Virus record (IMG/VR): IMGVR_UViG_2913152634_000006
DNA from: a virus
Taxonomy: Duplodnaviria > Heunggongvirae > Uroviricota > Caudoviricetes
Strand: one strand, 5' to 3'
Length of the DNA stretch: 39,545 nucleotides
Shown: positions 5,118 to 35,844 of the stretch, one piece after another
Position numbering within the stretch: position 1 is the stretch's first letter
Layout: each line of letters starts with the position of its first letter
Notes under the pieces: generated by a model
The model's database searches: none
Told to the model about the DNA's origin: nothing
Seen by the model: the letters and a program-made list of their open reading frames with translations, nothing else
Made by a program: the position numbers and the translations under genes

Positions 5118-7943
5118 ATGACGGCAGAGTACATCAGGGACTGGCAACAACCGCGCCACGCAGTGGGACGTGAAGGAACGGGGATCCCCGTTCCTGAATC
5201 TGCGCTTTCCTCCTGGCTGGATGCCTACCGGGCAGAGAACGAGCGCCGCCAGGAAATGGCTGATGCGGCGTTCTCCGCCACGCCGCTGGGCAACCTGATT
5301 AATAAAAGCCTGGACGCACAGGAAAAACAGGACAAAACCATCACACTGGCAGGAGACGCCAGAAAACAGGCACGCGGCGCGGTGGATGAAGCCATGGCCT
5401 CGCTGCGCCTGCTGCCGTCCTATCTGCGCGATCCGCTTATTCGCCACCTCTCCTTCCTGCGCAAAAAACAGGAAGTCGATCGCCGGAAAGGCAAAAAGAG
5501 CTGGCAGGCTGAACGCTACGCGCGCGGAACCCTGCGCAAAATATTCGAACGTCTGGACCGCACCGACCACCGCTGGCTGACACCGGGTTATCGCTCCCTT
5601 GCCGGACGCGAACGCCTGGATGATTTGCTTTACCTGCCGCAGCTCAACAAGCACCAGATACAGACGCTGGCCACCATGACGGCGGCGATGTTCAGCAGCA
5701 CCTTCGAAAAACTCTGCGATGGCTTTGGCGCGACTGATGGCGAACTGACCATGGATGTAACGCTGAAGGCGTATCAGATGCTGGCCCGCATGGCGTTACA
5801 CCTGCACGCCATGCCTCCACATTATGACGCACTGACAACAGACAAAGACCGGAGGAACGAACCGGACACGGAGCTGCTGCCGGGCGCAATCCTTCGCCTG
5901 ACCTGTGCGGAATGGTGGAAACGCAAACTGTGGCTGTTACGTTGCGAGTGGAGAGAAGAACAACTCCGCGCCGCCTGTCTGGTTTCCAGAAAAACATCAC
6001 CCTATCTGAGCCAGGACGCGTTAAGCGAGTTTCGCGCACAGCGCGAGAAAACACGCGATTTCCTGAAAAGTTTCATGCTGGAAAATGAAGACGGGTTCAC
6101 GATTGATCTCGAGACAGTGTATTACGCGGGAGTAAGTAACCCGGTTCACCGTAAGGCAGAAATGATGGCCACCATGAAGGGACTGGAACTTCTGGCCGAA
6201 GCCCGTGGCGACAGAGCGGTGTTTCTGACCGTCACCTGCCCGTCAAAATACCACGCCACAACGGAGAACGGTCATCCGAACCCCAAATGGAACGGGGCCA
6301 CCATGCGCGACTCCAGCGATTACCTGGTTAACACGTTTTTTGCGGCGGTCCGCAAGAAACTGAACCGCGACGGCCTGCGCTGGTATGGCATCCGCACGGT
6401 GGAGCCTCACCATGACGGCACCGTGCACTGGCATATGATGGTCTTTGCTCATCCGGAAGAAATCGACACCATTGTGTCCCACACCCGCGATATTGCCATT
6501 CAGGAAGATCGTCACGAGCTGGGTGATGATATTACCCCACGCTTTAAGGCGGAGTACGTCGACGGCTCAAAAGGCACACCGACCAGCTACATCGCCACCT
6601 ACATTGGGAAAAACCTGGACAGCCGTGCCGTGGATGGCATCGACCCGAAAACGGGCAAGCCACGCGTTGACCACGAAACAGGTAAATCAATGGCCGAGAG
6701 CGTGGAGCGCGCCATCGGCTGGGCGCGCCTTCACCGGGTCCGTCAGTTCCAGTTCTTTGGCATCCCCTCCCGTCAGGTGTGGCGTGAACTGCGCCGCCTT
6801 GCCAGCCAGATGGCACGCAATCCGGAAGGCCCGCAACGGCTGAAAGATGATGCAATGGATGCGGTACTCGCTGCCGCCGATGCCGGGTGTTTTGCCACCT
6901 ACATTGAAAAACAGGGTGGCGTGCTTGTTCCACGCAAGGACTACCTGATTCGCACCGCCTACGACCTCGCAGATGAGCTGAACGATTACGGCGAACAGAG
7001 CGTACAGATTTACGGGATCTGGTCACCACTCATCGGGGAATCCTCCCGTGTGTGCACGCATCCGGATAACTGGAAGTTGGTAAGACGTAAACCAGAACCA
7101 GAAGACAACGCCCACGAAAATGGTTTTGACCTTCAGGGCGGCCCTGCCGCCCCTTGGACTCGTGGCAATAACTGTCCCCGTGTACAGGAAACAGGCAACA
7201 GCGGGACAGAACAGTCGAAAGAACGGCCTGCACCGTGGCCGCAGCTTCCTGACGGCGTTGAAGTGAACGAATGGATGCGCTCACTGAAACGGCACGAACG
7301 CCGGGCGCTGATGCGTTCGCTTCGTGACAAACAGGCAAAAAACAGCAGTGATGAAATGCAGAGCTGGACACAGAGCCGCAAACAGCAGCGGCCTTTGCCT
7401 GATAACCACGAATTACTCGCTAAAGAATGGCGGGAATCTGCCGAATCTCTCGGCCTGCATATCGGTGAACAGCAGATGCAGCACCTGTTACGGGGAGGCA
7501 GCCTGTACGTTGACGGCAGCATCATTGCACCGCAGGGATTTGAAATTGTACGCAAACCGGATACCCGCCCGGCCAGCCGAATCACGCAGCTCTGGCAGCG
7601 CCTGAGCCGTAATCACGGCGTAAGCAGCACAGAGATCCGTCATAACCCGGTCGCCAGCTATCTGGCACAGCTGGGGGCATCAGACCCCGAAGCCGCCGCA
7701 CGTCTGGCATCCACACTTCAGCAGGACCAGAACACCATGAAAACCCCCGTTACCGTGCTTTCTGACATGCTGCGCGCCATCCGTGACGCAGAGCACGCAC
7801 AAAGAATCAATGAAACCACTGAACGCGCCCGCCACAAGGCTACTTTGCTCCAAAAGAGAGGCAAACAGCACTTTAGTAATCAAAATGATGATGAGAAAAA
7901 ACAATTGCAAAGTTGGATATGCCTTTTCCATCATGAGGGATGA
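5118..7943 (+). CDS. A: Replication initiation endonuclease A (HUH rolling-circle initiator)
   Basis: 941 aa; HUH motif in GTVHWHMMVFAHP and paired catalytic tyrosines YIATYIGKN (Y-x3-Y) as in P2 gpA; position after the early operon; longer than P2 A (recalled 761 aa), with the 3' end running into AT-rich DNA. Confidence 0.85.
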   Translation: MTAEYIRDWQQPRHAVGREGTGIPVPESALSSWLDAYRAENERRQEMADAAFSATPLGNLINKSLDAQEKQDKTITLAGDARKQARGAVDEAMASLRLLPSYLRDPLIRHLSFLRKKQEVDRRKGKKSWQAERYARGTLRKIFERLDRTDHRWLTPGYRSLAGRERLDDLLYLPQLNKHQIQTLATMTAAMFSSTFEKLCDGFGATDGELTMDVTLKAYQMLARMALHLHAMPPHYDALTTDKDRRNEPDTELLPGAILRLTCAEWWKRKLWLLRCEWREEQLRAACLVSRKTSPYLSQDALSEFRAQREKTRDFLKSFMLENEDGFTIDLETVYYAGVSNPVHRKAEMMATMKGLELLAEARGDRAVFLTVTCPSKYHATTENGHPNPKWNGATMRDSSDYLVNTFFAAVRKKLNRDGLRWYGIRTVEPHHDGTVHWHMMVFAHPEEIDTIVSHTRDIAIQEDRHELGDDITPRFKAEYVDGSKGTPTSYIATYIGKNLDSRAVDGIDPKTGKPRVDHETGKSMAESVERAIGWARLHRVRQFQFFGIPSRQVWRELRRLASQMARNPEGPQRLKDDAMDAVLAAADAGCFATYIEKQGGVLVPRKDYLIRTAYDLADELNDYGEQSVQIYGIWSPLIGESSRVCTHPDNWKLVRRKPEPEDNAHENGFDLQGGPAAPWTRGNNCPRVQETGNSGTEQSKERPAPWPQLPDGVEVNEWMRSLKRHERRALMRSLRDKQAKNSSDEMQSWTQSRKQQRPLPDNHELLAKEWRESAESLGLHIGEQQMQHLLRGGSLYVDGSIIAPQGFEIVRKPDTRPASRITQLWQRLSRNHGVSSTEIRHNPVASYLAQLGASDPEAAARLASTLQQDQNTMKTPVTVLSDMLRAIRDAEHAQRINETTERARHKATLLQKRGKQHFSNQNDDEKKQLQSWICLFHHEG

Positions 7944-8128
7944 GATGTGAATCGCTAACCGAATATTGTGTTGAATAGAATGCAATTGATATAATTCCCC
8001 TTAATTCATTGAAAACTGGATTTTTTGCATAACTATGCAAATATCTATGGACGGCGACGATGTTTTTTATCGGGAAAACTCAAGTGCCATGTTAAGATTA
8101 TGTTTATTTTTTACTGAGAAAATCGTGG

Positions 8129-8974
8129 ATGACAAAGCCTTCTCATTTTAGAACCCCTCTTCGTTATCCGGGAGGTAAGGCAAAATTCTTGCCACATATT
8201 GAACAAATACTCCGCAACAATGATCTCATTGGTGGATGTTATGCTGAACCTTATGCAGGTGGAGCCGGTGTAGCATTAGGTTTGCTCCTTAACGGTCTTG
8301 TTGAAAATATCTTCATAAATGATATTGATCCTGCCATTTATTCTTTTTGGTTTGCAGTGGTTAATCATAACGATCTGTTATGTGAAATGATTGATGAAGT
8401 TCCTGTGACTATTGAAAATTGGCATACTCAAAAGGAGATACTCCTAAACAATGATAAATATAGTATGCTTGAAGTCGCATTATCTACTTTCTTTTTAAAT
8501 AGAACAAACCGTTCAGGAATACTTAAGGCTGGCGTTATTGGAGGGAAAGAACAAAAAGGACCATGGAAGTTAGATGCAAGATTCAACAAAAAAGAGTTAA
8601 TTAAAAGGATTGAACTAATTGGTGCATATAAGGAGAAAATTTACGTATCGAATTTTGATGCTGTAGATTTTCTGCTACACCAAAAAGCATTGCTACCCAA
8701 AAATAGTCTAATATATCTTGATCCACCTTATTATGTTAAAGGAGCAGAGTTATATAGAAATTTTTATAAACATGATGATCATGTAAAAATCGCTAATACA
8801 CTACGGGAAATTCAACTACCTTGGGTTGTGTCTTATGACAATGTGCCTGAAATAAAAAGCATATATCATGAATTCAATATGACTGATTATACGCTTAATT
8901 ATACTGCACAAGATAAGAAAAAAGGTCTAGAAATTATCATTTATAATCATGGTATAAAAATCCCTGACATTTAA
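8129..8974 (+). CDS. Dam-family (D12-class, alpha-type) N6-adenine DNA methyltransferase
   Basis: 281 aa; N-terminal RYPGGKAKFL, SAM-binding EPYAGGAGV, catalytic DPPYY; AT-rich coding sequence with an AT-rich upstream region. Confidence 0.85.
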   Translation: MTKPSHFRTPLRYPGGKAKFLPHIEQILRNNDLIGGCYAEPYAGGAGVALGLLLNGLVENIFINDIDPAIYSFWFAVVNHNDLLCEMIDEVPVTIENWHTQKEILLNNDKYSMLEVALSTFFLNRTNRSGILKAGVIGGKEQKGPWKLDARFNKKELIKRIELIGAYKEKIYVSNFDAVDFLLHQKALLPKNSLIYLDPPYYVKGAELYRNFYKHDDHVKIANTLREIQLPWVVSYDNVPEIKSIYHEFNMTDYTLNYTAQDKKKGLEIIIYNHGIKIPDI

Positions 8975-8991
8975 ATTTAAGGATGATATAG

Positions 8992-10689
8992 ATGATTAAA
9001 GAAATTAGTTTTAAAAAATTTAAGAAACTGATAGATATTGACTTCTCATTCAATGAAGACATCAATATAATATCAGGAACCAATGGGACATGTAAGACAA
9101 CATTGCTTCATTTAATTAGCAATGGTTTCCAAATGCCACCATCTCGATCACAAAATTATTCAAATAGTAATTGTGTTAGAGTTATAAAATCTATAAACAA
9201 AATAGCCAACCCCAAAATGGAAGCAATTGTTAGGGAATCAAAAAATTACACCGATCCGGCAGAGGGAACAAAAGGTGTGTTATTTTCTATTAACTATTTG
9301 GATCATAGCACACTAGACTTCAGAAAGCACAACTCAAAAAATCCAGACGAAGCGCAACGGTATGCTATCAAACCAGTATACCCACGCGGAAAAGAAAAAC
9401 AATCACTTCCAGCTAAACCAGTTTTATATCTTGGATTATCGCGACTATTCCCAATTGGTGAAACTAAAGACGACGCCCTTACAAAAATTCCGTTAAACCT
9501 ACCAGAAGAGTATGTTGGTTATATATCGAAAATATATAATGAACTTTTGGGCATTAATATTATAAATATAGAATCAAACAATATCGGAGATTTTAAAGCT
9601 GGCCCATTATTTGATACCGATAACCCAGCAATTGATTCTAATACCATATCATCCGGGGAAGACAATATATTCATTATAATCAAGGCATTAGTTAGCCTTA
9701 GGTATTATTTTGAATCACTTATTCAATCCACTGATCAAAAAGAAAGCATTCTGTTAATAGATGAATTTGATGCCACTTTACATCCTTCTTTACAGATAAG
9801 ATTATTAGATAAAATTTATCAATACGCAAAAGATTATAAGATTCAAGTATTTTTCACAACGCACAGTCTGACATTGCTAGAGTATGCTTTTCATAAAAAA
9901 TACCATGTTGTCTATCTAATTAACAATATTACAAAGGCTCTGCTTTTGGATAATCCTGATATATTAAAAATAACAATGTATCTGAAAACACAAACAAAGG
10001 ATGAGATATACACAAGGAACAAGATACCAGTTTTCACGGAAGATGAAGAAGCTCGCTTTTTATTTAATGAAATACTTGGTTATTGGATAAGCAAATATCC
10101 AAATTTTGCTATAGTTAGTAATTCATTTCACTTAATTGATTGTTTCATTGGCGCAGACAATTTAAAAACTATTTTTAATGATTCTCATCTTAAGGAAACC
10201 TCGTTAAAATCAATTTGTATTCTTGATGGAGATCACAGCCCTGAGGATCAGAGAGGAATTATATCACTGCCGGGTGAAAAAGCTCCAGAACAATTGATAT
10301 TTGAGCATTGTGAGCACCTTTATAATACCGACGACTCTTCCTTCTGGGAAAATCAGGATATAATTAACAATGGTTTTTCGAAAGAGTTATACTTACTCAA
10401 GATACGTCCTCAATTACAATCAATTGAAACTGAAATTCAGAAAAGAAAAGACAACCATGAGTCTACATCCGGTTTAAGAAGAAGATTAAATAAGAAAATA
10501 TTCAATCAGCATATTGAATTCTTTAGAATGATTACAAGAAACTGGTTAGACAAACCAGAAAATCAGAAATCTCTCCAGTATTTTTACAATGGATTACGAT
10601 CCTTATTCTACCGGGTTACACCAACAAACGGCATTGACAGAAAAATTTGGGATTTTGACTATAACAAAATCATTAAAGAGGATAAATAA
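8992..10689 (+). CDS. ABC/AAA-type ATPase with probable C-terminal TOPRIM-like region (OLD-family-like nuclease candidate)
   Basis: 565 aa; N-terminal P-loop ISGTNGTCKTTLLHLI, Walker B/D-loop ILLIDEFDATLHP, H-loop VFFTTHSL; C-terminal acidic motifs VFTEDEE and ILDGDHS spaced about 55 aa apart, resembling TOPRIM Glu and DxD; begins 18 nt after the methyltransferase stop with SD AAGGATGA; occupies the locus where P2 carries old/tin. Confidence 0.8.
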   Translation: MIKEISFKKFKKLIDIDFSFNEDINIISGTNGTCKTTLLHLISNGFQMPPSRSQNYSNSNCVRVIKSINKIANPKMEAIVRESKNYTDPAEGTKGVLFSINYLDHSTLDFRKHNSKNPDEAQRYAIKPVYPRGKEKQSLPAKPVLYLGLSRLFPIGETKDDALTKIPLNLPEEYVGYISKIYNELLGINIINIESNNIGDFKAGPLFDTDNPAIDSNTISSGEDNIFIIIKALVSLRYYFESLIQSTDQKESILLIDEFDATLHPSLQIRLLDKIYQYAKDYKIQVFFTTHSLTLLEYAFHKKYHVVYLINNITKALLLDNPDILKITMYLKTQTKDEIYTRNKIPVFTEDEEARFLFNEILGYWISKYPNFAIVSNSFHLIDCFIGADNLKTIFNDSHLKETSLKSICILDGDHSPEDQRGIISLPGEKAPEQLIFEHCEHLYNTDDSSFWENQDIINNGFSKELYLLKIRPQLQSIETEIQKRKDNHESTSGLRRRLNKKIFNQHIEFFRMITRNWLDKPENQKSLQYFYNGLRSLFYRVTPTNGIDRKIWDFDYNKIIKEDK

Positions 10690-10767
10690 TGTATTCTAAT
10701 AGGATATAAACATCAAAGCTATATTTTTTACACATATCAAGAGTAAAAAATAATTTAACTTTTACAT

Positions 10768-10803
10768 AACGACCTCTTTTACAAATAAGTAGAAAAGGTC
10801 GTT
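10768..10803 (+). terminator. Strong hairpin (15-bp imperfect inverted repeat, 6-nt loop) ending the methyltransferase-ATPase operon
   Basis: aacgacctcttttac / gtagaaaaggtcgtt read directly, 80 nt downstream of the ATPase stop; no canonical long U-tract. Confidence 0.45.
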
Positions 10804-10928
10804 ATAACTCTCATCTCCATAGCATGTAATTTTCTTTGCATATTTTCACATAACAGTCAGGGATGTATTTATAAGCAACGTCGTATACATAGGCTCAATT
10901 TTTCTATAAATAAGCACTCCGTTCGGTT

Positions 10929-10955
10929 TGCACAATAGTGCACAAATTTGCACAA
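10929..10955. repeat. Three direct TGCACAA repeats at exact 10-bp phasing, followed by a T7 run
   Basis: tgcacaa at 10929, 10939, 10949; lies in the A-to-Q interval where P2-like phages carry cos; candidate protein-binding array. Confidence 0.5.
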
Positions 10956-11379
10956 TTTTTTTGAACGACTTTTTGCCCTTCCGGCCCGCATGGCGGCTGG
11001 ATCCGTCAAGGATCCGTGCGTGCACAAAAAAACGCGCTTTTTCTGCGCGCAGGTGACGGGGGAACAGCCCGCGTTTCAGGGGGTAAATAGCATTCCCTGA
11101 GCGATGTCGCAGCGACACAACAGAATGGCCATATTTCTCACGCTGAGCGTGAAAAAGATGTGAGGGCTTTTGATTTGATGGGGGGAAAGGTAAGGCCGTC
11201 AAAATCGCACTGAGGCGGCGAGAACATACAGTCAACGCGGTAGGATTGCGTAAGAGTCTGACCGTCGATGGTGGCGATAAACTGGAAGGCGTCGTGAAAT
11301 TATCTGATTGATACAGGAGCTGGAGAGTCGGGGCATAAATTTTTTATGCCCCGGCGAAGCAGCAGACAAGCGAAGCGCG

Positions 11380-12429
11380 TCAGGATGTGGGCTGGGTATC
11401 TAACAGTGCGTAAGGGTTAAAGCGGATCACCTCTTCGCCAAGCCAGTCATTGATGTGCTTCATGGCCTCCATGACGGGCATCAGCTCGTTAATTGCGTAA
11501 ACCCGCGCGGCCTTCTCCACATCACCAAACGCACTTTTTTCACCCGGCATCGCCCCCATCAGTTGCGGCGGAACGCGGTGCGCAGCCAGCACATCATCAC
11601 GGGATGCCGCCTTAACATTCATGAACTCATCCTTTGCTGTGATCTGCTGGAACGGCAAAATTTGCACACCTTCTTTGCCACCGTTGGGCGCATGAATGAG
11701 CACGTTTTTAAATGCACCACCACCACGCGCACCCTGTAACGTTTCTTTCAGGGAGTCCATGCTTTCGCGGTTTACCTGCGCTGCACCGATGTAGATGATG
11801 CACCCGGCGTGGGATCCGTTGTCGTAATACAGTTTTCTGAACATGTCCGCCGAATGAGACAGGCTGGCCGAGAGTAATGCGCCGAGATATTCCGGCATGC
11901 CGTAGATTTCCTGGTTAATATCCGGATTCATCAGGTGGCACACTTTGCCAGGGCGAAACTGAAACGCGTCCTTGCCATCCTGCACATACCACCATGATTC
12001 AAGATCGCTTCCGCGTCGCATGTATTTCGCCAGGGCGTGCCGTAATTTAAGCGGTTCGCCGAGCATATTGCTCCGAAGCTCAAGGAATGCGTTACCGAAC
12101 ACAAACCAGTCCAGCGCCAGCGCCGAGAAATCCTGCCGGGAAAGCAGCGGGTGCGGAATATAGCAACCGAGCAATACATTGCGCTTAAAGTAAAGCGCAG
12201 ACTGATGCCAGGACGTTTGCCGGGCAGCTCTTGCCAGACCGTACCAGTCCACCGGGGTTTCATACCACCGCCCGTTATCAGCACAGTACATATTGTCCAG
12301 CAGGTCATGCCCGGTCAGGCGATAAGGACCATCAAATGTGAATGCACTGAGCGATGATTCTTTCCTGAGCGCATCAGCGAGATCAATGCGTGAACTCATG
12401 CGCACTTTTTTATTTTTTCTGCTCATCAA
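11380..12429 (-). CDS. Q: Portal (capsid portal protein, gpQ)
   Basis: 349 aa; size and position (divergent from the O-N-M-L capsid block, immediately downstream of the large terminase with a 4-nt overlap) match P2 Q. Confidence 0.85.
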   Translation of the reverse strand: MMSRKNKKVRMSSRIDLADALRKESSLSAFTFDGPYRLTGHDLLDNMYCADNGRWYETPVDWYGLARAARQTSWHQSALYFKRNVLLGCYIPHPLLSRQDFSALALDWFVFGNAFLELRSNMLGEPLKLRHALAKYMRRGSDLESWWYVQDGKDAFQFRPGKVCHLMNPDINQEIYGMPEYLGALLSASLSHSADMFRKLYYDNGSHAGCIIYIGAAQVNRESMDSLKETLQGARGGGAFKNVLIHAPNGGKEGVQILPFQQITAKDEFMNVKAASRDDVLAAHRVPPQLMGAMPGEKSAFGDVEKAARVYAINELMPVMEAMKHINDWLGEEVIRFNPYALLDTQPTS

Positions 12430-14177
12430 AACTCCATAACCGTGAAACGCTCGTTTTCTCCTTCGCCGCCAATCGGTTCGTTAATGACAGCAAGCATGGT
12501 TGCCCACGCAAGGTCGCCGTGGCTGATCCCCCTCGCGCGGTCCGTTTCGTAAGTGATAAAGCCGCCCGGTGTTTTCACCTTACGCACGGCGTTAAAGGCC
12601 GCGACCAGCTCGCGTTCGGCGCGATCGTATTCCCACCGCCCGGCACGCATTATTTGCAGCATTTTCAGTACCAGCGACCGTTTTGATGACAGCGTGAAGG
12701 TGTACGGAATAGCAGCAGGGAAAAACCGTTTCACTATCTGATAAACAGCCTCCCCGTTCCCGCCTGTCACATCAATGCCGATGTGTTCCACGTTGTAGCG
12801 ATACGTGAACTCTTCAATGACTCTGGCCTGTTCTTCAAACTCCAGCCCCTGAACGCGTCGCGTCTCCACCGTTCGAAAACGGCCTCCAGGAACAGCCGGA
12901 GGAACCACCACGGACACAGCGCCGCTGTCGCCGTTGCCACTGCTGCCGTTTGCGTCATACCCAATCCATACCGGACGATTCCCCATCGGGCGGGGAGCAA
13001 AAGGTTTCCAGTCTTTCCAGTCGTCGTATCCGTCAACACCGCAGCCAATCAGGATATTCAGGTTAAATGCCGATACCCCTTCGCGGACAAACTCACACAT
13101 ATAGAGATTGAGGAACTCGTCTTCGGTGTTTTCATCACGAATTTCATCAATATCGGTGTGTTTCCAGCCGTGATTAACCACATCTTCCAGCGTGACAATC
13201 TGCCGCCACGTCCGGTCAGGGCAGATAAGCCCGTTATGCAGCGTTTTCCAGTCCACAGGAAAACGCTGGCGTTTATGCGTGGCCTTTTTCTCGTTCCAGC
13301 GGTCGCCGTTCCAGTAGGCGTATGCCTCGTGCGTTTCGGTGGATGGCGTGGAGAAGTAGGTGCGCCGCAGTCCGCTGAGGGTTGCCATAGCGCCAGCCAC
13401 CTTGCGCAGTTCAGCAAAGCGACTGACCCAGAAAAATTCATCAAAATAAAAATTGCCCGTATAGGACTGTGCCGATGCAGCAGAAGTGCCGAGAAAATGC
13501 AGCTCTGCGCCGTTGGAGAGGATGATTTTATCGCCCCCTTTCAGCTCCACATCAACTTCAGCCGCAGCCTTCTGAATAATGCTTTTAAACTGGAACGCCT
13601 GACGACGCGACGCAGACAAAAAAATCTGGTTACGCTGGTAAGGTTGCGCCACATCGTCACGCAGCGCCATCAGCAGAGCTTCCTGTGCAAAATACCAGGT
13701 CGCCCCAATCTGTCGGGATTTCAGGATCATCCTGTTACGTATCCCGGCTTCCCTGCAAAGGGTCAGGGAGTCAAACCAGCCCCGCTGATGCCACTCCAGC
13801 CTGCTGATGATTTTTTCCCGCAGTGCGGCAATCTGTTCCGGCGTGAAATGATTTTTAAGTTTTTTCGCCCGGCCTTTCTTTCCTGTGGCCGCCGCATCCG
13901 GCTGGCCATCATGCAGTTTTTTAAGCTGCCGGGTCAGCAGGTCTATTTCCTTGAAGTCACCACCTGTTTTATTCTGTTTTTCAGTGAGCTGGATGAGGCG
14001 CGCATCGATGGACTGCGTGACACGCTGCACGGGTGGCGTTTCATCCCACTGGTCGCGTTTTTTCCACGCATAAATCGTGTTCGGGTTTATTCCCATCAGA
14101 CGTGATATTTCTGCGGGCGGATAACCCTGCCAGTAAAGTTGACGCGCACGCTGGCGCACAAAAGCGTCCTGAATCAT
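12426..14177 (-). CDS. P: Terminase large subunit (ATPase, gpP)
   Basis: 583 aa; N-terminal HTH-like segment and ATPase region; P-Q same-strand pair divergent from the O gene as in P2. Confidence 0.9.
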   Translation of the reverse strand: MIQDAFVRQRARQLYWQGYPPAEISRLMGINPNTIYAWKKRDQWDETPPVQRVTQSIDARLIQLTEKQNKTGGDFKEIDLLTRQLKKLHDGQPDAAATGKKGRAKKLKNHFTPEQIAALREKIISRLEWHQRGWFDSLTLCREAGIRNRMILKSRQIGATWYFAQEALLMALRDDVAQPYQRNQIFLSASRRQAFQFKSIIQKAAAEVDVELKGGDKIILSNGAELHFLGTSAASAQSYTGNFYFDEFFWVSRFAELRKVAGAMATLSGLRRTYFSTPSTETHEAYAYWNGDRWNEKKATHKRQRFPVDWKTLHNGLICPDRTWRQIVTLEDVVNHGWKHTDIDEIRDENTEDEFLNLYMCEFVREGVSAFNLNILIGCGVDGYDDWKDWKPFAPRPMGNRPVWIGYDANGSSGNGDSGAVSVVVPPAVPGGRFRTVETRRVQGLEFEEQARVIEEFTYRYNVEHIGIDVTGGNGEAVYQIVKRFFPAAIPYTFTLSSKRSLVLKMLQIMRAGRWEYDRAERELVAAFNAVRKVKTPGGFITYETDRARGISHGDLAWATMLAVINEPIGGEGENERFTVMEF

Positions 14178-22589: not shown

Positions 22590-24749
22590 ATGAGTACCAC
22601 AACACGAAAATTTAAAACCGTTATCACCGATACAGGTGCAAAAAAATTAGCTCAGGCAGCCGCGCCAGATGGTAAGCCTGTCCGCCTGACTCATATGGCC
22701 GTGGGCGACGGTGGCGGCACGTTGCCCACACCAGACAGTAAGCAGACCCGTCTGGTGCATGAGGTGTGGCGACACACTGTTAATCGCGTCATCCTGGACG
22801 CAACACATCAGAACCGCATTATTGCGGAGCTGGTTATACCTCCTGAAACGGGCGGATTCTGGATCCGGGAAATTGGTGTATTTGATGAGCACGGCGATTT
22901 AATCGCGGTGGGCAATACTGCCGAAAGTTACAAGCCAACCGTTGCCGAGGGGTCCGGACGTGCACAAACATTTCGCACCATTCTGACCGTATCCAGCACT
23001 GCCAGCGTGGCGCTTACCGTGGATAACACCATGGTGATGGCCACAGTGGATTACGTGGATGACAAACTGAAAGAGCATGAACAGTCACGACGTCACCCGG
23101 ATGCCTCGCTGACCGCAAAAGGCTTTGTTCAACTCAGTAGCGCCACTAACAGCGATTCTGAAACGCTGGCCGCAACGCCGAAAGCGGTTAAGGCCGCGTA
23201 TGACCTGGCTAACGGAAAATATACCGCTCAGGACGCCACGACGGCACGAAAAGGGATAGTCCAGCTCAGCAGTGCAACCAACAGCACGTCTGAAACGCTG
23301 GCAGCGACACCAAAAGCGGTTAAGGCGGTAATGGATGAAACGAACAAGAAAGCCCCATTAAACAGCCCGGCACTGACCGGAACGCCAACAACACCAACTG
23401 CACAACAGGGAACGAATAATACCCAAATCGCAAGCACGGCTTTCGTTATGACCGCGATTGCCGCACTTGTAGACTCTTCACCTGACGCACTGAACACGCT
23501 GAACGAGCTGGCGGCGGCGCTGGGCAACGACCCGAATTTTGCGACCACCATGACTAACGCGCTTGCGGGTAAGCAACCGAAAGATGCCACCCTGACGGCG
23601 CTGGCCGGGCTTGCTACTGCGGCAGACAGGTTTCCGTATTTTACGGGGAATGATGTTGCCAGTCTGGCAACCCTAACAGAAGTCGGGCGGGATATTCTTG
23701 CGAAATCGACCGTTGCCGCTGTTATCGAATACCTCGGTTTACAAGAAACGGTAAATCAGGCTTCTGGCGCATTACAGAAAAACCAGAACGGCGCAGATAT
23801 TCCCGATAAAAAACTATTCCTGCGTAATATCGGCACAACAAATTCAACAACAATGTCTTTTAGTGGTGGTGCTGGATGGTTCAAACTGGCAACTGTAACA
23901 ATGCCACAAGCCAGTTCCGTGGTTTACATAAACCTGATTGGTGGCGCAGGGTATAACGTTGGCTCCCCGCAGCAAGCAGGCATCTCTGAGCTGGTTCTGC
24001 GTGCAGGAAATGGAAATCCAAAAGGTATTACTGGTGCATTATGGCGACGGACCTCGGTTGGATTTACTAATTTTGCATGGGTGAATACATCCGGTGATAC
24101 CTATGACATTTATGTAGAAATAGGTAATTACGCCACAGGTGTTAATATCCAGTGGGATTATACAAAGGATGCAACTGTACAAATTCATACATCACCAACT
24201 TATACAGCGAATAAACCAACAGGCCTGACAGATGGAACTGTATATGTAATTTACAGTTCGCACATTAAACCGACTGCTGCTGAGGTTGGGGCGTTGTCAT
24301 TATCTGGCGGTCAATTGAATGGTGCATTGGGTATCGGAACATCCAGTGCTCTTGGCGGTAACTCGATTGTTTTGGGTGATAATGACACGGGATTTAAACA
24401 AAATGGCGACGGGTATCTGGATGTTTATGCTAATAACGTCCATGTTATGCGCTTTGTCTCCGGCGGCATTCAAAGTAATAAAACCATAAATATTACAGGG
24501 CGTGTTAACCCCTCGGATTACGGTAACTTTGATTCCCGCTATGTGAAAGATGTTCGACTTGGTTCACAGCAATATTATGGCGTGAACAACTGGCAAACAT
24601 GGAATTTCCAGTGCCCGTCAGGTCATGTATTGACTGGTATTAATGTTCAGGATACAGGGTCCAATTCTGCCGATAATATAGCGGGCGTTTATTACAGACC
24701 CGTTCAAAAGTATATAAATGGCACCTGGTATAATGTAGCGAGCGTTTAA
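22590..24749 (+). CDS. H: Tail fibre protein H (constant N-terminal part plus currently expressed variable C-terminal part)
   Basis: 719 aa; tail-fibre repeat motifs ([19 protein letters not shown] twice); C-terminal [11 protein letters not shown] shared with the inverted Hv' cassette; gix-like site inside the gene at codons about 378-386. Confidence 0.85.
23127..23330 (+). repeat. Tandem duplication of a tail-fibre collar repeat (two roughly 72-bp copies, period about 132 bp) within H
   Basis: Copy 1 at 23127-23198 and copy 2 at 23259-23330, encoding [22 protein letters not shown]. Confidence 0.5.
23722..23747. promoter_or_regulatory. gix/cix-like recombination site, left (inside H)
   Basis: ttatcgaatacctcggtttacaagaa; 23/26 identical to the reverse complement of the right site and close to the recalled Mu gix sequence; central dinucleotide TC at 23734-23735. 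Confidence 0.6.
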
Positions 24750-25303: not shown

Positions 25304-25837
25304 TCATTCTGGTTGTTCGGGAAACGTTACTGGCAGGCTGGAGGTGTCTGTAGATTCGACCTTCTGCGCATAGAGCATCCACTCGGTTAATTTTTGTTTA
25401 TTCTCGTCGGAAATGATGCCCAGCCGTAGCTGTGAGTCCCATAGCTGGGTTTTATCCCTGACAAGTTGCACCAGGCTTTGCTTTTCATTCTCTGCCTGCT
25501 GCCTCTGTTCCTCTTCGGTATAAGTTCGCTTTATCACTACGCCATCTTTGAACATCCATTTACCCGAAATATCAGCCCGGCGATTTGCTGTAATATCAGG
25601 AACCTCAACGACGCTTGCGCCTTCCGGATTAATTGCTGAAACATCCTTTTCAATACAAATAATAACGCCGTTGTAGTCATAGACCATTTTCAACGTATCA
25701 GTCTGGAAATTCTTTTGTTCCTCATACCAGTTTTTTCCATCCTCTGTATAAAGCCATTTGATGTTAAATTGTTTCGTTAGCTGGTATTGCTCTTTTGTTT
25801 TAGGGTTGCCAGCTGTAATATTTTTTAAGTGCATCAT
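25304..25837 (-). CDS. Alternative tail fibre assembly chaperone G'
   Basis: 177 aa, paralogue of G on the opposite strand inside the invertible segment. Confidence 0.8.
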   Translation of the reverse strand: MMHLKNITAGNPKTKEQYQLTKQFNIKWLYTEDGKNWYEEQKNFQTDTLKMVYDYNGVIICIEKDVSAINPEGASVVEVPDITANRRADISGKWMFKDGVVIKRTYTEEEQRQQAENEKQSLVQLVRDKTQLWDSQLRLGIISDENKQKLTEWMLYAQKVESTDTSSLPVTFPEQPE

Positions 25838-25839
25838 AA

Positions 25840-26796
25840 TTAAATACTCCCCGCGTTATACCACGTTCCATTAATGCAATACTGAATTGGCCTTGCCTGA
25901 GTTGTATCAATTAATTCATCACGGTTTCCGTTAACTGAACCAGTAACGACATAACCTGACCTGTCAGACCAGCCGGGACCATTCCATGTCTGAACAGATG
26001 ACAGACCGCCCAGGCGAATACCTGTAATAAACCTTGAGTTACATTCTGCCTGCGTATATGCACCAACATCCCCCGCAGAGGGTTTGCGGGTTGTGGTGTA
26101 AAACTCTGACCAGTTAGCTTCAAAGCCATAACCATCACGCGCTGAACGATAAAAGATGCCGCCGTTCTTATAATTCACGCGGAACTGTACAGCAGGGCAA
26201 CTCCCCGCATTCATATTGAAGTGGAGGATTAATGTCGATGCACCACTGATATCTGCATCATAAACACCGCTATTCCAGTTCCAGCCAACAGCTTTATCAT
26301 TTGCGACCCTGCTTCCTGTTTGCCCTAAAGCAAATGCAGGCTGCTGGTTTTTCGTGTTGTAGTCTCGTCGCCAGCCAGGAGAATAAGCATCACCATGATT
26401 AATATAAGTGAATTGAGCGTTAGTAATTCCGCCACCGCTGGACGTGCTCGGCGTGGTAACGCGTATAGTCATTGCGCCGCGGGTGCCAATAACTTCCACC
26501 ACAGCACCTGCAAGACAAATATTTCCGCAACCTGTATCTGTAATTACCTTATTATTTGCATAAGCCCATGAGCCTTTGCACATCCAGTAAGGATGGTTAA
26601 ATGCCCCCTGACTCTCCAGCCACGAAATGAATTGTGCGGTTGTCCAGGCCTGACTATCGCCACCAATATTCAGCCATGAGCTATATGCGCGGCAGGCCCC
26701 AATATTTTTGGTGAAGGTATCTTTTCCCGGAATATCTGCGCCGTTCTGGTTTTTCTGTAATGCGCCAGAAGCCTGATTTACCGTTTCCTGTAAACC
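25840..26796 (-). CDS. Alternative tail-fibre C-terminal cassette Hv' (promoterless and start-less; expressed only after inversion fuses it to H)
   Basis: Open frame from the crossover in the right gix site to the stop at 25840; the frame is closed by TAA immediately outside the site; C-terminus IQYCINGTWYNAGSI parallels the H C-terminus; the ORF-track Met start (26583) is internal. Confidence 0.65.
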   Translation of the reverse strand, partial: GLQETVNQASGALQKNQNGADIPGKDTFTKNIGACRAYSSWLNIGGDSQAWTTAQFISWLESQGAFNHPYWMCKGSWAYANNKVITDTGCGNICLAGAVVEVIGTRGAMTIRVTTPSTSSGGGITNAQFTYINHGDAYSPGWRRDYNTKNQQPAFALGQTGSRVANDKAVGWNWNSGVYDADISGASTLILHFNMNAGSCPAVQFRVNYKNGGIFYRSARDGYGFEANWSEFYTTTRKPSAGDVGAYTQAECNSRFITGIRLGGLSSVQTWNGPGWSDRSGYVVTGSVNGNRDELIDTTQARPIQYCINGTWYNAGSI

Positions 26797-26810
26797 GAGG
26801 TTTTAGATAA
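26785..26810. promoter_or_regulatory. gix/cix-like recombination site, right (inverted relative to the left site)
   Basis: ttcctgtaaaccgaggttttagataa; its reverse complement ttatctaaaacctcggtttacaggaa is close to the recalled gix sequence. Confidence 0.6.
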
Positions 26811-26864
26811 TGGCCGTTTCCGGCCTGCATGGCATGATTTGCGCTTTTGGACGGGAGATTCAGC

Positions 26865-27452
26865 GTGCTGATTGGCTATGTAAGGGTATCAACAAATGAC
26901 CAGAATACAGACCTGCAACGAAACGCTCTTGTTTGTGCAGGATGTGAACAAATATTTGAAGATAAATTAAGCGGGACAAAGACAGACCGACCGGGATTAA
27001 GACGCGCTTTAAAGCGCCTTCAAAAAGGTGACACGCTGGTTGTCTGGAAACTGGATCGCCTCGGGCGAAGCATGAAACATCTGATTTCTCTCGTCGGGGA
27101 ACTACGGGAGCGAGGAATTAATTTTCGCAGTCTGACCGACAGCATAGATACATCTTCTCCAATGGGGCGTTTTTTCTTCCACGTGATGGGTGCCCTGGCT
27201 GAAATGGAACGTGAATTAATTGTTGAACGTACACTGGCCGGACTGGCGGCAGCACGCGCACGGGGGCGCACAGGCGGACGTCGACCGAAGCTGACAAAAG
27301 AACAGCATGAGCAAATAGCAAGGCTGATCAAAAACGGGCACGACAGAAAACAACTGGCAATAATTTACGGCATTGGTATATCGACGATTTATCGTTACCA
27401 CCCCGCAGGAGAATCAATCGGAACAATAGAGAAGAGTCAGGAAACAAAATAA
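26865..27452 (+). CDS. Serine-recombinase DNA invertase (Gin/Hin/Cin/Pin family)
   Basis: From GTG 26865 (GGGAG SD 7 nt upstream): MLIGYVRVSTNDQNTDLQRNALVCAGCEQIFEDKLSG... is near-identical over the first ~140 aa to recalled Mu Gin, including the catalytic Ser in YVRVSTNDQ; C-terminal HTH. ORF-track ATG 26847 is the alternative start. Confidence 0.9.
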   Translation: MLIGYVRVSTNDQNTDLQRNALVCAGCEQIFEDKLSGTKTDRPGLRRALKRLQKGDTLVVWKLDRLGRSMKHLISLVGELRERGINFRSLTDSIDTSSPMGRFFFHVMGALAEMERELIVERTLAGLAAARARGRTGGRRPKLTKEQHEQIARLIKNGHDRKQLAIIYGIGISTIYRYHPAGESIGTIEKSQETK

Positions 27453-34462: not shown

Positions 34463-35248
34463 TCAATCACCTATGTGATTACGTTCTATATATCTTACAA
34501 TCTTCTCTAAAGATTCAAATCCCCACCTCTGCATAGCATGTGGGAATTCTGTATATTCATAATCTTCTATGGTGAGATCCCATGTACTTTTCTTGAATTC
34601 ACACTGATATAATCGCACAGTCTTGTTTAAAACCAACCCTTCTAACACACTGCTTTTCTTAATGATTTTGTCAATGTCTTTATTGTTAATCCCAATGTAG
34701 ATAGCTGTTACCGAACTTAAATCAGTTATCTTGTCAATTAAAATATTTTCTTGCTTTTGTAATAGCCCCACTCGCTTTATTATTCTAACTTCTTCTTCAT
34801 ATTTCCAATGCAATGATTTAGTAAGCAATAATTTACTAATTACATCAGCGCTATAAATGTTTTCTTGACTGATTTTTAGTTTACTTTTTATTCGACTCTC
34901 TAAATAATTAATGTCACCTTTCTGTGCCGTAATTAGGCATTTTTCTTCATCATCAAACCCTGCCCTTTCTGTGTCAATTGCTACAACAAACCCCTGATGT
35001 TTATCAGCATAATGTGACCACATCAGTACATTGAGAGGATTTTTAGAAAGGCATAAGCAGGCAACATTTTGATTGATCTCCCCCCTCATAGCTAATGGTT
35101 CAAGCGATTCACCATCTAATGAAAGTTCATAGCCATAGCTTTCAAAAGGATCATTAAACTCACTATACGGAGTGAATTTTATAGAGATGTAACCATCTTT
35201 AAAAAATCGTTCCAATGATGTCTTATCTATATATTTATACAGAATCAT
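34463..35248 (-). CDS. AT-rich accessory (moron) gene, DUF2971-like protein of unknown function
   Basis: Start placed at ATG giving MILYKYID...; LYKY N-terminus, FNDPFE and MWSHYADKHQGFVV motifs resemble DUF2971 as I recall it; opposite strand to flanking D and ogr; strongly AT-rich relative to neighbours. Confidence 0.55.
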   Translation of the reverse strand: MILYKYIDKTSLERFFKDGYISIKFTPYSEFNDPFESYGYELSLDGESLEPLAMRGEINQNVACLCLSKNPLNVLMWSHYADKHQGFVVAIDTERAGFDDEEKCLITAQKGDINYLESRIKSKLKISQENIYSADVISKLLLTKSLHWKYEEEVRIIKRVGLLQKQENILIDKITDLSSVTAIYIGINNKDIDKIIKKSSVLEGLVLNKTVRLYQCEFKKSTWDLTIEDYEYTEFPHAMQRWGFESLEKIVRYIERNHIGD

Positions 35249-35443
35249 AATATATTCAGAATTAATTATAGGTGTTATCAGTATACAGTACTTCAACAAG
35301 TAGATGTAAAGATCCCATTTAAACGTTCCTCCTCAATACGCGGATTAAACAAATTAAAGCATCTTACTCAAAATGGACCATCAGTTGGATTTAGAGCCAA
35401 CACAACCTAGAATAGCGGCAGCACCACGTTAAGGGAGGTCGCT

Positions 35444-35704
35444 ATGTTCCGTTGTCCGCTTTGTGGCGCATCTGCCCGTATCCGCACCAGTCGTCCGGAA
35501 AATGATTCAAACACCGTGCGACAAAAGTATTACCAGTGCAACAACCTGGAATGCGGCGTATGCTTCTCAACACTGGAAGCTTTCCATAAATTCACATCGA
35601 AACACGCCTCCGGCGTTCACTCTTCAGAAGGTATCCCGTGGCATGAGCTGCCAGCTTCACACAGGGGAAACAATCAGATGAGTTTGCCTTTACCTCAGAA
35701 TTAA
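35444..35704 (+). CDS. ogr: Late gene transcriptional activator Ogr (zinc finger)
   Basis: MFRCPLCGASARIRTSR...YYQCNNLEC matches the C-x2-C...C-x4-C Ogr/Delta pattern and recalled P2 Ogr N-terminus (MFHCPLC...ARTSR...HQCQNVNC); strong SD AAGGGAGG. Confidence 0.8.
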   Translation: MFRCPLCGASARIRTSRPENDSNTVRQKYYQCNNLECGVCFSTLEAFHKFTSKHASGVHSSEGIPWHELPASHRGNNQMSLPLPQN

Positions 35705-35844
35705 CAGGCAGAATTGCCGGAGTAACAAAAAAGCGATAGATTACGCGCGGGTGCCTTTCGGCTGATGGTCGGAGGGAATACCCGAAGGCCAGATGTGGAA
35801 AGGCCCCGGAAAACATTTCTGTTTAACCGAGGCCCTAACACTTC

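What the first reader, a model, noticed from the sequence alone, without database searches (positions are those of the whole stretch)
7944..10803. Methyltransferase plus OLD-like ATPase two-gene cassette in the P2 old/tin defence hotspot: candidate methylation-coupled OLD-family restriction module
Between replication gene A and the portal gene, where P2 carries old and tin, this prophage has an AT-rich operon. By eye it is roughly 30-35% G+C against roughly 50-55% in the flanking phage genes (not computed). The first gene is a Dam-family D12-class N6-adenine methyltransferase (RYPGGK, EPYAGGAGV, DPPYY). Eighteen nucleotides later, with its own SD, comes a 565-aa ABC-type ATPase (P-loop, Walker B DEFD, H-loop TTHS). 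Its C-terminal third carries VFTEDEE and ILDGDHS about 55 residues apart, which I read as TOPRIM Glu and DxD motifs. That is the ATPase-TOPRIM architecture of OLD-family nucleases (P2 Old, Gabija GajA). OLD-family systems I know of are stand-alone, helicase-linked (Gabija), retron-linked or PARIS-type. I do not recall a described system in which an OLD-like nuclease is paired with a dedicated Dam-like methyltransferase. The tight linkage, shared composition, single upstream AT-rich promoter region and strong downstream hairpin suggest one co-acquired unit, plausibly a restriction-modification-like defence in which methylation protects self DNA from the nuclease. The alternative is an orphan anti-restriction Dam sitting next to an ordinary Old homologue.
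Basis: partly seen in the sequence, partly recalled or inferred. Interest (0 to 1): 0.85.

Follow-up and report, generated by a model that had tools for sequence, protein, structure and literature searches.

The report
Methyltransferase plus OLD-like nuclease defence pair
A P2-like E. coli prophage carries a DNA methyltransferase tightly paired with an ATP-driven, OLD-like nuclease; the pair is conserved across many bacterial phyla, is related to the known PD-lambda-5 defence system, has never been tested, and probably acts as a restriction-modification-like phage defence.

Summary
Two co-oriented genes (8129-8974, 281 aa; 8992-10689, 565 aa) form a 32% G+C block between P2 gene A and the portal gene.

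The first gene is a D12-class DNA methyltransferase. The second is an ABC ATPase with a C-terminal TOPRIM-like domain. Its E350 and D412-x-D414 residues are invariant, but support for the fold is only moderate.

The pair is not a chance neighbourhood. In 79 genome loci and 38 viral loci, every intact ATPase with sequenced flanks has this methyltransferase beside it. Gene order and orientation vary between loci.

The methyltransferase belongs to the PD-Lambda-5_B family (406 bits). PD-lambda-5 is a validated E. coli defence system whose partner is a ParB/HEPN protein. Among the 80 closest viral methyltransferase loci, 43 carry an ATPase partner, 30 a ParB/HEPN partner and 1 both. Some genomes encode all three genes in one operon.

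The window therefore holds the ATPase-only form of a modular, methyltransferase-centred system. That arrangement is listed in a supplementary table of Rousset et al. 2022 but is unnamed and untested.

An R-M-like mechanism is the best reading (about 0.55). I rate it a new variant of a known kind, of moderate interest.

The parts
7944..8128 (+). AT-rich (33% G+C) intergenic region upstream of the methyltransferase; presumed promoter region, not verified
   Evidence: Composition. The sigma-70 scan found no + strand site here and no excess of sites over shuffles. Sequence read.
8129..8974 (+). D12-class (alpha-class) DNA methyltransferase, 281 aa, member of the PD-Lambda-5_B family. Motifs: RYPGGK, EPYAGGAGV, DPPYY. 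Conserved central segment at aa 121-160.
   Evidence: Pfam MethyltransfD12 5e-20. PADLOC PD-Lambda-5_B 1.6e-122 at 406 bits and MTase_II 1.2e-108. 49-53% identical to the MTases of PD-lambda-5-type and ATPase-type loci in E. coli. Closest solved structure is M.CbeI 7M6B, 2.7e-17. Conservation profile.
8975..8991 (+). 17-nt intergenic spacer with Shine-Dalgarno AAGGA (8979-8983), 8 nt before the ATPase ATG
   Evidence: Sequence read directly.
8992..9966 (+). ABC-type ATPase domain of the 565-aa protein (aa 1 to about 325). Walker A K35, signature-like NTISSGEDN (217-225), Walker B D257-E258, H-loop H291.
   Evidence: Pfam AAA_15 3.1e-12, AAA_21 1.4e-10, SMC_N. These residues are invariant in 42 homologues down to 45% identity. 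Foldseek matches to the retron Eco8 effector, GajA, Ts OLD, PtuA and Rad50.
10009..10326 (+). TOPRIM-like domain (aa about 340-445). Strand then E350/D351/E353 (VFTEDEE); strand then D412-G-D414 (ILDGD).
10327..10689 (+). C-terminal all-helical domain (aa about 446-565) with invariant F451, W452, W518 and W553; function unknown (candidate DNA- or partner-binding part); includes the stop codon
   Evidence: Secondary structure and pLDDT. Invariant columns. No informative structural match. A second tier of homologues aligns only up to about aa 455-488, so this domain is specific to the subfamily.
10766..10805 (.). Inverted repeat 77 nt after the ATPase stop (17-nt arms, 6-nt loop); possible transcript end or stabiliser, not a canonical intrinsic terminator
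   Evidence: the repeat finder I1, 88% complementary. No T-run. Not called by the terminator scan.
10690..10900 (.). Low-GC (28%) tail of the acquired block; the composition returns to phage level (51%) after about 10900

Best explanation
The cassette is a mobile, two-gene, methyltransferase-centred defence module.

Gene 1 is a D12-class DNA methyltransferase of the PD-Lambda-5_B family. It marks the DNA of the lysogen, prophage included, at a short motif. The motif and the base (m6A or m4C) are unknown.

Gene 2 is an ABC-ATPase fused to a TOPRIM-type metal-dependent nuclease and a helical C-terminal domain, an OLD-like architecture. It is the effector. It uses ATP binding or hydrolysis to engage DNA, and it nicks or cleaves DNA that lacks the mark. 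In effect it is an ATP-dependent restriction enzyme built on a TOPRIM nuclease.

The module is the 'ATPase-only' form of a modular system. Its other forms are PD-lambda-5 (the same MTase family with a ParB/HEPN effector) and three-gene operons that carry both effectors.

Shown here: the gene pair, its domains, its obligate linkage, its relation to PD-lambda-5, and its spread on prophages, ICEs and islands.

Inferred: that methylation protects self DNA from this nuclease, and that the nuclease targets unmethylated DNA.
For: 1. Linkage. In 79 genome loci from at least 9 phyla and one archaeal MAG, an MTase homologue (32-58% identical) lies next to the ATPase wherever flanking sequence exists. 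The same holds in 36 of 36 viral loci with room. Every ATPase-without-MTase locus is cut by a contig end or holds a decayed ATPase.

2. R-M-like arrangement. 39 loci are ATPase>MTase adjacent, 15 are MTase>ATPase adjacent, 4 are on opposite strands and 7 are separated.

3. Co-inheritance. Mantel r = 0.59 between the two proteins' distance matrices, with 0 of 2000 permutations as high.

4. Asymmetry expected if the nuclease needs the MTase. The MTase occurs without this ATPase (30 of 80 viral loci have ParB/HEPN instead). About 6 loci have a fragmented ATPase beside an intact MTase, and 0 show the reverse.

6. Defence context. The window's cassette sits in the P2 gene A to portal hotspot. Relatives sit on an ICE and on an integrase islet.

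7. The sister system is a proven defence. PD-lambda-5 could only be cloned in a host deleted for the mrr region, so that MTase family modifies DNA in E. coli.

8. L001 and L041 carry PD-Lambda-5_A (1.6e-165), the MTase and the ATPase in one operon.
Against: - No experiment bears on this pair. Neither methylation nor cleavage has been shown.
- Most characterised OLD-like and ABC-TOPRIM systems (P2 Old, Gabija, PARIS, retron Eco8, HEC-04) act by sensing infection and are not known to read methylation.
- The TOPRIM assignment is only moderately supported.
- The MTase recognition segment is the best-conserved part of the family, whatever the partner. No region of the ATPase could be identified as a matching sequence reader.
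- In most relatives the nuclease gene comes first, and no controller protein is conserved. It is therefore unclear how safe establishment in a new host is achieved.
- The decay asymmetry (6:0) is weak. Given gene lengths a 2:1 ratio is expected, so p is about 0.09, and some frameshifts may be assembly errors in MAGs.
Confidence: 0.55

Rival explanations
1. Guard or abortive-infection model. The ATPase-TOPRIM protein is an infection sensor and effector like PARIS, Gabija, Old or HEC-04. The MTase is not a self-marker for it. Instead it is the guarded or regulating partner: an antitoxin-like inhibitor, or a decoy for phage anti-restriction or anti-methylase proteins. When a phage inhibits or titrates the MTase, the nuclease is released and degrades nucleic acids indiscriminately, which stops the infection at the cost of the cell.
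For: Known ABC-TOPRIM systems are triggered by phage proteins such as Ocr, Stp, SSB and RecBCD inhibitors. HEC-04 works as a single gene and is toxic when induced. Vassallo et al. read PD-lambda-5 as a compacted 'RM+Abi' system. The other partner of the same MTase family carries a HEPN (RNase-type) domain. No sequence-reading domain could be found in the ATPase. Obligate linkage and the decay asymmetry fit a toxin-antitoxin relation equally well.
Against: The MTase keeps all its catalytic motifs invariant across the family, including DPPY, the FxGxG-type motif and NRxNxSG. That argues that methylation itself is selected, not just a protein-protein contact. Opposite-strand and separated arrangements are more typical of R-M pairs than of tight toxin-antitoxin operons. 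PD-lambda-5's MTase is active enough to require deleting the mrr region in the cloning host.
Confidence: 0.27
2. Independent neighbours. An orphan phage MTase (anti-restriction or epigenetic) happens to sit beside a stand-alone Old-type exclusion nuclease in a hotspot that collects accessory genes.
For: P2 itself carries a stand-alone old at this locus. Phages often carry orphan D12 MTases, as in cyanophages and Helicobacter phages at 25-40% identity. RefSeq annotates the two genes generically.
Against: Linkage is complete in more than 100 non-identical loci across phyla and mobile-element types. The two genes are co-inherited. The closest 80 viral MTases almost always have an ATPase or ParB/HEPN partner. 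The ATPase is not an Old orthologue.
Confidence: 0.03
3. A non-defence role. The pair serves the mobile element itself, for example as an addiction or stabilisation module (post-segregational killing) or in epigenetic control of prophage genes, with phage exclusion as a side effect at most.
For: R-M-like pairs act as selfish addiction modules. The pair rides on prophages, ICEs and integrase islets. The decay asymmetry fits addiction.
Against: The location is in hotspots dedicated to anti-phage systems. The sister system PD-lambda-5 gives broad phage protection. Addiction and defence are not mutually exclusive, so this is more a complement than a rival.
Confidence: 0.1

Closest known systems
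PD-lambda-5 (Vassallo et al. 2022; PADLOC/DefenseFinder PD-Lambda-5_A + PD-Lambda-5_B)
   Same: Same MTase family: 406 bits to the PD-Lambda-5_B model, and 53% identical to the MTase of the PD-lambda-5-type locus L082. Same two-gene 'MTase + effector' layout. Same P2 gene A to portal hotspot. Both effectors occur together with the MTase in three-gene operons.
   Different: The effector differs. PD-lambda-5_A is a ParB/HEPN protein, while here it is an ABC ATPase-TOPRIM protein. No PD-Lambda-5_A-like ORF exists anywhere in the window, so PADLOC-type rules would not call the system.
OLD-family nucleases: Class 1 P2 Old and Ts OLD, Class 2 GajA, Class 3 retron Eco8 effector, Class 4 PARIS AriA/AriB
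   Same: N-terminal ABC ATPase of the AAA_15/AAA_21 type followed by a TOPRIM-type domain with a Glu and a DxD. Best full-length structural matches are the retron Eco8 effector, GajA and Ts OLD. Same locus as P2 old.
   Different: Very low sequence similarity. Only the Walker B to H-loop core aligns with P2 Old. No Pfam OLD-like TOPRIM hit. The conserved partner is an MTase, not none (Class 1), a UvrD-like helicase (Class 2), a retron (Class 3) or a separate TOPRIM protein (Class 4). It has a distinct C-terminal helical domain.
HEC-04 (Payne et al. 2024 preprint): single-gene ABC ATPase-TOPRIM defence
   Same: This is the only family whose sequence model matches the TOPRIM-like region (aa 343-445, 3.5e-7). 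ATPase and E/D/D residues are required for defence, and the protein is toxic when over-expressed.
   Different: The match is partial, covering model positions 230-408 of 494. HEC-04 acts alone and is embedded in Hma systems. This protein is always paired with its own MTase.
Type II restriction-modification systems
   Same: One MTase and one nuclease gene, obligately linked, with variable order and orientation. They are mobile and of low G+C relative to the host. The MTase also matches a PADLOC Type II MTase model at 1.2e-108.
   Different: The nuclease would be ATP-dependent and TOPRIM-based. To my knowledge that fold is not used by any characterised restriction enzyme. It matches no REase model ahead of generic ATPase models in PADLOC. 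Sequence-specific cleavage is unproven.
M.CbeI (PDB 7M6B), alpha-class N4-cytosine MTase of Caldicellulosiruptor bescii
   Same: Closest solved relative of the MTase (2.7e-17 over aa 8-275), with shared RYPGGK, LNR..SG and LDPPYY motifs.
   Different: Only a distant relative. It partners a conventional restriction enzyme, which I state from my own knowledge. It shows that the methylated base of the window's MTase cannot be read from the DPPY motif alone.

Membership tests
OLD-family nuclease | N-terminal ABC-type ATPase with Walker A, signature-like motif, Walker B and H-loop | tested here: met
   AAA_15 at 47.2 bits (cut-off 32.1) and AAA_21 at 42.2 bits (cut-off 27). K35, S220-G222-E223, D257-E258 and H291 are invariant. 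Structural matches to OLD, GajA and the retron Eco8 effector.
OLD-family nuclease | C-terminal TOPRIM domain with catalytic Glu and DxD | tested here: inconclusive
OLD-family nuclease | Genomic context of one of the four described classes (alone, UvrD-type helicase, retron, split ATPase/TOPRIM) | tested here: not met
   The conserved neighbour is an MTase, with or without ParB/HEPN. No helicase, retron or separate TOPRIM gene is conserved. Classes as described.
OLD-family nuclease | ATP-modulated metal-dependent nuclease activity | not testable with these tools
   Needs purified protein.
PD-lambda-5 | PD-Lambda-5_B methyltransferase | tested here: met
   PDLC04018 at 1.6e-122 and 406 bits, over aa 6-280 of 281.
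PD-lambda-5 | PD-Lambda-5_A (ParB/HEPN) effector adjacent to the MTase | tested here: not met
   A ParB/PD-Lambda-5_A profile finds nothing in any frame of the window at E <= 1. The 565-aa protein does not hit PD-Lambda-5_A among its best PADLOC matches, whereas true members score 4e-74 to 5e-168.
Type II restriction-modification system | MTase and nuclease genes obligately linked and mobile as a unit | tested here: met
Type II restriction-modification system | Nuclease cleaves at or near the motif that the MTase protects | not testable with these tools
   Needs a methylome and cleavage assays. Simple motif counts in the prophage were uninformative.
HEC-04 | Full-length match to the HEC-04 model; stand-alone gene | tested here: not met
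   The match covers only model positions 230-408 of 494 (1.3e-16). The gene is never stand-alone.
Gabija / PARIS / MADS / Hma | Cognate partner genes (GajB helicase; AriB DUF4435; mad genes; Hma helicase) | tested here: not met
   GajA, AriA and mad3 hits cover only short ATPase motifs. The cassette has two genes and no such partner. The MTase hits no MADS or Hma model.
Dam (GATC N6-adenine) methyltransferase | Score above the curated dam family threshold; similarity to Dam structures | tested here: not met
   TIGR00571 scores 69.3 bits against a cut-off of 114.85. No Dam, T4 Dam or DpnM chain matches at E <= 0.01. The only hit is the N4-cytosine MTase M.CbeI.

The most novel reading that the evidence does not exclude
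The pair defines a fifth, methyltransferase-linked context class of OLD-like ATPase-TOPRIM nucleases, and the first restriction enzyme built on a TOPRIM fold. It would be an ATP-dependent nuclease whose self/non-self decision is set by a dedicated D12-class MTase. It would also be the missing 'R' of a tripartite M + R + Abi system, of which PD-lambda-5 (M + ParB/HEPN) is the other reduced form. The two effectors would be exchangeable modules reading one conserved methylation mark.
Probability: 0.4. Interest if true: 0.7.

Novelty: new variant of a known kind. Interest (0 to 1): 0.55.

Why it matters
OLD-family nucleases are widespread, but what tells them to cut is poorly understood. A subfamily that is always tied to its own methyltransferase offers a simple, testable self/non-self rule. 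It would add TOPRIM to the folds used by restriction enzymes.

The link found here also reframes PD-lambda-5. PD-lambda-5 and this cassette look like alternative outputs of one methyltransferase-centred platform, with ParB/HEPN, ATPase-TOPRIM or both as effector. Current defence-finder rules miss the ATPase form: 43 of the 80 closest viral MTase loci carry it.

The practical gains would be better annotation of prophage, ICE and island cargo, a candidate barrier to transformation and phage therapy in E. coli and many Firmicutes, and a compact (2.6 kb) system for dissecting how methylation is coupled to an ABC-ATPase nuclease.

Tried and rejected
- Pfam on the C-terminal 246 aa, and on 18 homologous C-termini: no TOPRIM, OLD-like_TOPRIM or DUF4435 hit.
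- Profile of the C-terminal region against all PDB sequences: only chance globin matches.
- hhalign and BLASTP against P2 Old: only the Walker B to H-loop segment aligns. 'Ordinary Old homologue' is therefore rejected.
- Promoter and terminator scans: no support for a defined upstream promoter or a canonical terminator.
- Observed versus expected counts of GATC, GANTC, GGCC, CATG, GATATC and CTGCAG in the cassette and the prophage: uninformative about MTase specificity.
- Literature: no paper in the library describes an OLD-like nuclease paired with a D12 MTase. The 2023 OLD review and the 2025 papers proposing new OLD classes never use the word methyltransferase.
- Krishnan et al. [quoted passage not shown] It is not held in the library, so a prior computational description cannot be excluded.
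- Considered and rejected: membership of Gabija, PARIS, Septu, MADS and Hma. Hits are limited to generic ATPase motifs, and the partner genes are absent.
- My first 'broken MTase' calls in L007 and L180 were artefacts of a second, unrelated D12 MTase nearby.
Full report
**What is in the sequence**

The window is a complete P2-like prophage of E. coli. It has an integrase at 1-1020, replication gene A at 5118-7943, and portal and terminase genes at 11380-14177, followed by the late genes.

Two co-oriented ORFs lie between gene A and the portal gene. One is 281 aa (8129-8974) and the other is 565 aa (8992-10689). A 17-nt spacer separates them and carries AAGGA 8 nt before the second ATG.

The block is 32% G+C, against 53-57% in the flanking phage genes. 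The low-GC stretch ends near 10900. Phage P2 carries tin and old at this same locus.

A 17-nt-arm inverted repeat lies at 10766-10805, but it is not a canonical terminator. No promoter could be substantiated upstream.

**The two proteins**

The 281-aa protein is a D12-class methyltransferase (Pfam 5e-20). Calling it 'Dam' goes too far. It scores 69 bits against a curated dam cut-off of 115. Its only solved relative at E <= 0.01 is M.CbeI, an alpha-class N4-cytosine methyltransferase. The modified base is therefore open.

The 565-aa protein has an ABC-type ATPase domain, with AAA_15 and AAA_21 above cut-off. The Walker A lysine, the signature-like motif, Walker B and the H-loop are invariant in 42 homologues down to 45% identity.

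**Is the C-terminal part a TOPRIM nuclease?**

The evidence is mixed, and I rate it moderate.

Against:
- Pfam finds nothing in this region, in this protein or in 17 homologues.
- A profile of the region finds nothing among PDB sequences.
- Foldseek on a confident model of the isolated region (pLDDT 91) finds nothing significant.
- hhalign against P2 Old aligns only the Walker B to H-loop core.

For:
- The full-length model's best end-to-end matches are OLD-family enzymes: the retron Eco8 effector at 1.9e-12, GajA, and Thermus scotoductus OLD at 7.9e-10.
- E350 and D412-x-D414 sit just after beta-strands and are invariant.
- The PADLOC model of HEC-04 matches exactly this segment (aa 343-445, 3.5e-7). 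HEC-04 is a validated ATPase-TOPRIM defence protein whose Walker A lysine and E/D/D site are required.

The protein therefore has an OLD-like architecture. It is not an Old orthologue, and it fails the context criterion of all four described OLD classes.

**The pair is a conserved unit**

I fetched 79 loci encoding relatives of the ATPase from one-genome-per-species contigs. They come from Proteobacteria, Firmicutes, Actinobacteria, Fusobacteria, Spirochaetes, Deferribacteres, Planctomycetes, Bacteroidota, Tenericutes and one archaeal MAG.

- A homologue of the methyltransferase (32-58% identical) lies beside the ATPase in every locus where the flank is present.
- An independent sample of 38 viral contigs gave 36 of 36.
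- Every locus with an ATPase and no methyltransferase is either cut by a contig end just past the ATPase or holds a decayed ATPase.

Arrangement varies as in R-M systems. There are 39 ATPase-first and 15 methyltransferase-first adjacent pairs, 4 on opposite strands and 7 separated.

Distances between ATPases and between their methyltransferases are correlated (Mantel r = 0.59; 0 of 2000 permutations reach it). About six loci show a frameshifted or truncated ATPase beside an intact methyltransferase, and none shows the reverse. That fits a nuclease that needs its methyltransferase, but the numbers are weak.

The ATPase subfamily has 125 cluster representatives at E <= 1e-30 among 1.84 billion. 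In E. coli the exact cassette is in 15 of 5426 complete genomes.

The methyltransferase scores 406 bits (1.6e-122) on PADLOC's PD-Lambda-5_B model. PD-lambda-5 was selected experimentally by Vassallo et al. 2022. They describe it as 'ParB/HEPN, methyltransferase'. It gives unusually broad protection and had to be cloned in a host deleted for the mrr region. [quoted passage not shown]

A PD-lambda-5-type locus sits in the very same P2 hotspot in another E. coli strain. It is L082, 2460 bp, with a partner scoring 5.3e-168 on PD-Lambda-5_A. Its methyltransferase is 53% identical to the one in the window.

The window has no PD-Lambda-5_A-like ORF in any frame. It therefore shares the methyltransferase and not the effector.

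Among the 80 viral loci closest to this methyltransferase (of at least 589), 43 have an ABC-ATPase partner, 30 a PD-Lambda-5_A partner and 1 both. Three are truncated and 3 have other neighbours.

In 12-18 genome loci all three genes lie together. One example is PD-Lambda-5_A > methyltransferase > ATPase in Pantoea coffeiphila, where the A protein scores 1.6e-165.

E. coli also carries more distant ATPase-methyltransferase pairs on an ICE and on an integrase islet. The system is therefore modular: one methyltransferase family, and one or both of two effectors.

**Mechanism**

I favour, at about 0.55, an R-M-like logic. The methyltransferase marks resident DNA, and the ATPase-TOPRIM protein attacks unmarked DNA in an ATP-dependent way.

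Shown: obligate and asymmetric linkage, variable gene order, invariant catalytic motifs in both proteins, mobile defence-hotspot context, and an active methyltransferase in the sister system.

Inferred: protection by methylation, and the nuclease's target.

The main rival, at about 0.27, is a guard or abortive-infection model. There the ATPase-TOPRIM protein is an infection sensor, as in PARIS, Gabija or HEC-04, and the methyltransferase is the guarded or restraining partner. This fits what is known of characterised ABC-TOPRIM systems. It also fits my failure to find a sequence-reading domain.

Chance adjacency is excluded.

Two points remain unexplained. The methyltransferase's central segment (aa 121-160), which may hold the recognition element, is the most conserved part of the family whatever the partner. 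That suggests one shared mark rather than many specificities. Also, no controller gene is conserved.

**Novelty**

The exact arrangement is listed in Table S5A of Rousset et al. 2022, as 'MethyltransfD12 + AAA_15/AAA_21' and as 'AAA_15/AAA_21 + MethyltransfD12 + hypothetical' with WP_000588792, the window's ATPase. It is not discussed in their text and is not among their validated systems.

No paper in the searchable library describes the pair. PADLOC v2 has no model for it as a system.

One caveat remains. Krishnan et al. [quoted passage not shown]

I class the finding as a new variant of a known kind. It is an unnamed, untested sister of PD-lambda-5 with an OLD-like effector. It is of moderate interest and directly testable.

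Noticed in passing
window 25304-27452: At the position of P2's second variable locus (Z/fun) lie an alternative tail-fibre C-terminus (25840-26583, minus strand, gp37_C) and a tail-fibre assembly gene (25304-25837, minus strand). They are on the opposite strand to the main tail-fibre gene (22590-24749, plus strand). A Hin/Cin-type serine invertase follows (26847-27452, Resolvase 1.7e-50). This looks like an invertible host-range switch. PADLOC finds no defence gene there.
   Followed up: partly
window 5118-7943: Replication protein A is 941 aa, against 761 aa in P2. The extra C-terminal part has only a weak DUF4951 hit. P2 instead has a separate DUF3850 gene (Orf91) after gene A.
   Followed up: no
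window 10929-10959: Three TGCACAA repeats form overlapping palindromes right at the boundary between the low-GC insert and phage-level composition. They could be a protein-binding site or a recombination scar.
   Followed up: no
window 34463-36933: A DUF2971 protein (34463-35299, minus strand) and an IS3-type transposase (35845-36933, minus strand) lie just beyond the prophage late genes.
   Followed up: no
L198:3324-7231: In one viral contig the same MTase family is flanked on both sides by PAPS-reductase-domain (DndC-like) genes instead of an ATPase or ParB/HEPN gene. This hints at a further partner type.
   Followed up: partly
L001:5545-9689 and L041 (also L015, L016, L021, L023, L035, L058, L075, L120): These loci hold three-gene operons with PD-Lambda-5_A (ParB/HEPN), the MTase and the OLD-like ATPase, in several gene orders. 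PADLOC-type rules would call only PD-lambda-5 there and would miss the third gene.
   Followed up: yes
L007:11612-12484, L180:5918-6727, L099:1058-1840, L004:5002-5784: A second, distantly related D12-class MTase often lies within a few kb of the pair. C5-cytosine MTases lie nearby in six other loci. The pair tends to sit in R-M-rich islands.
   Followed up: no
window 8129-8974: The closest solved structure to this 'DNA adenine methylase' is the N4-cytosine MTase M.CbeI (7M6B). The generic RefSeq name may therefore state the wrong base.
   Followed up: partly
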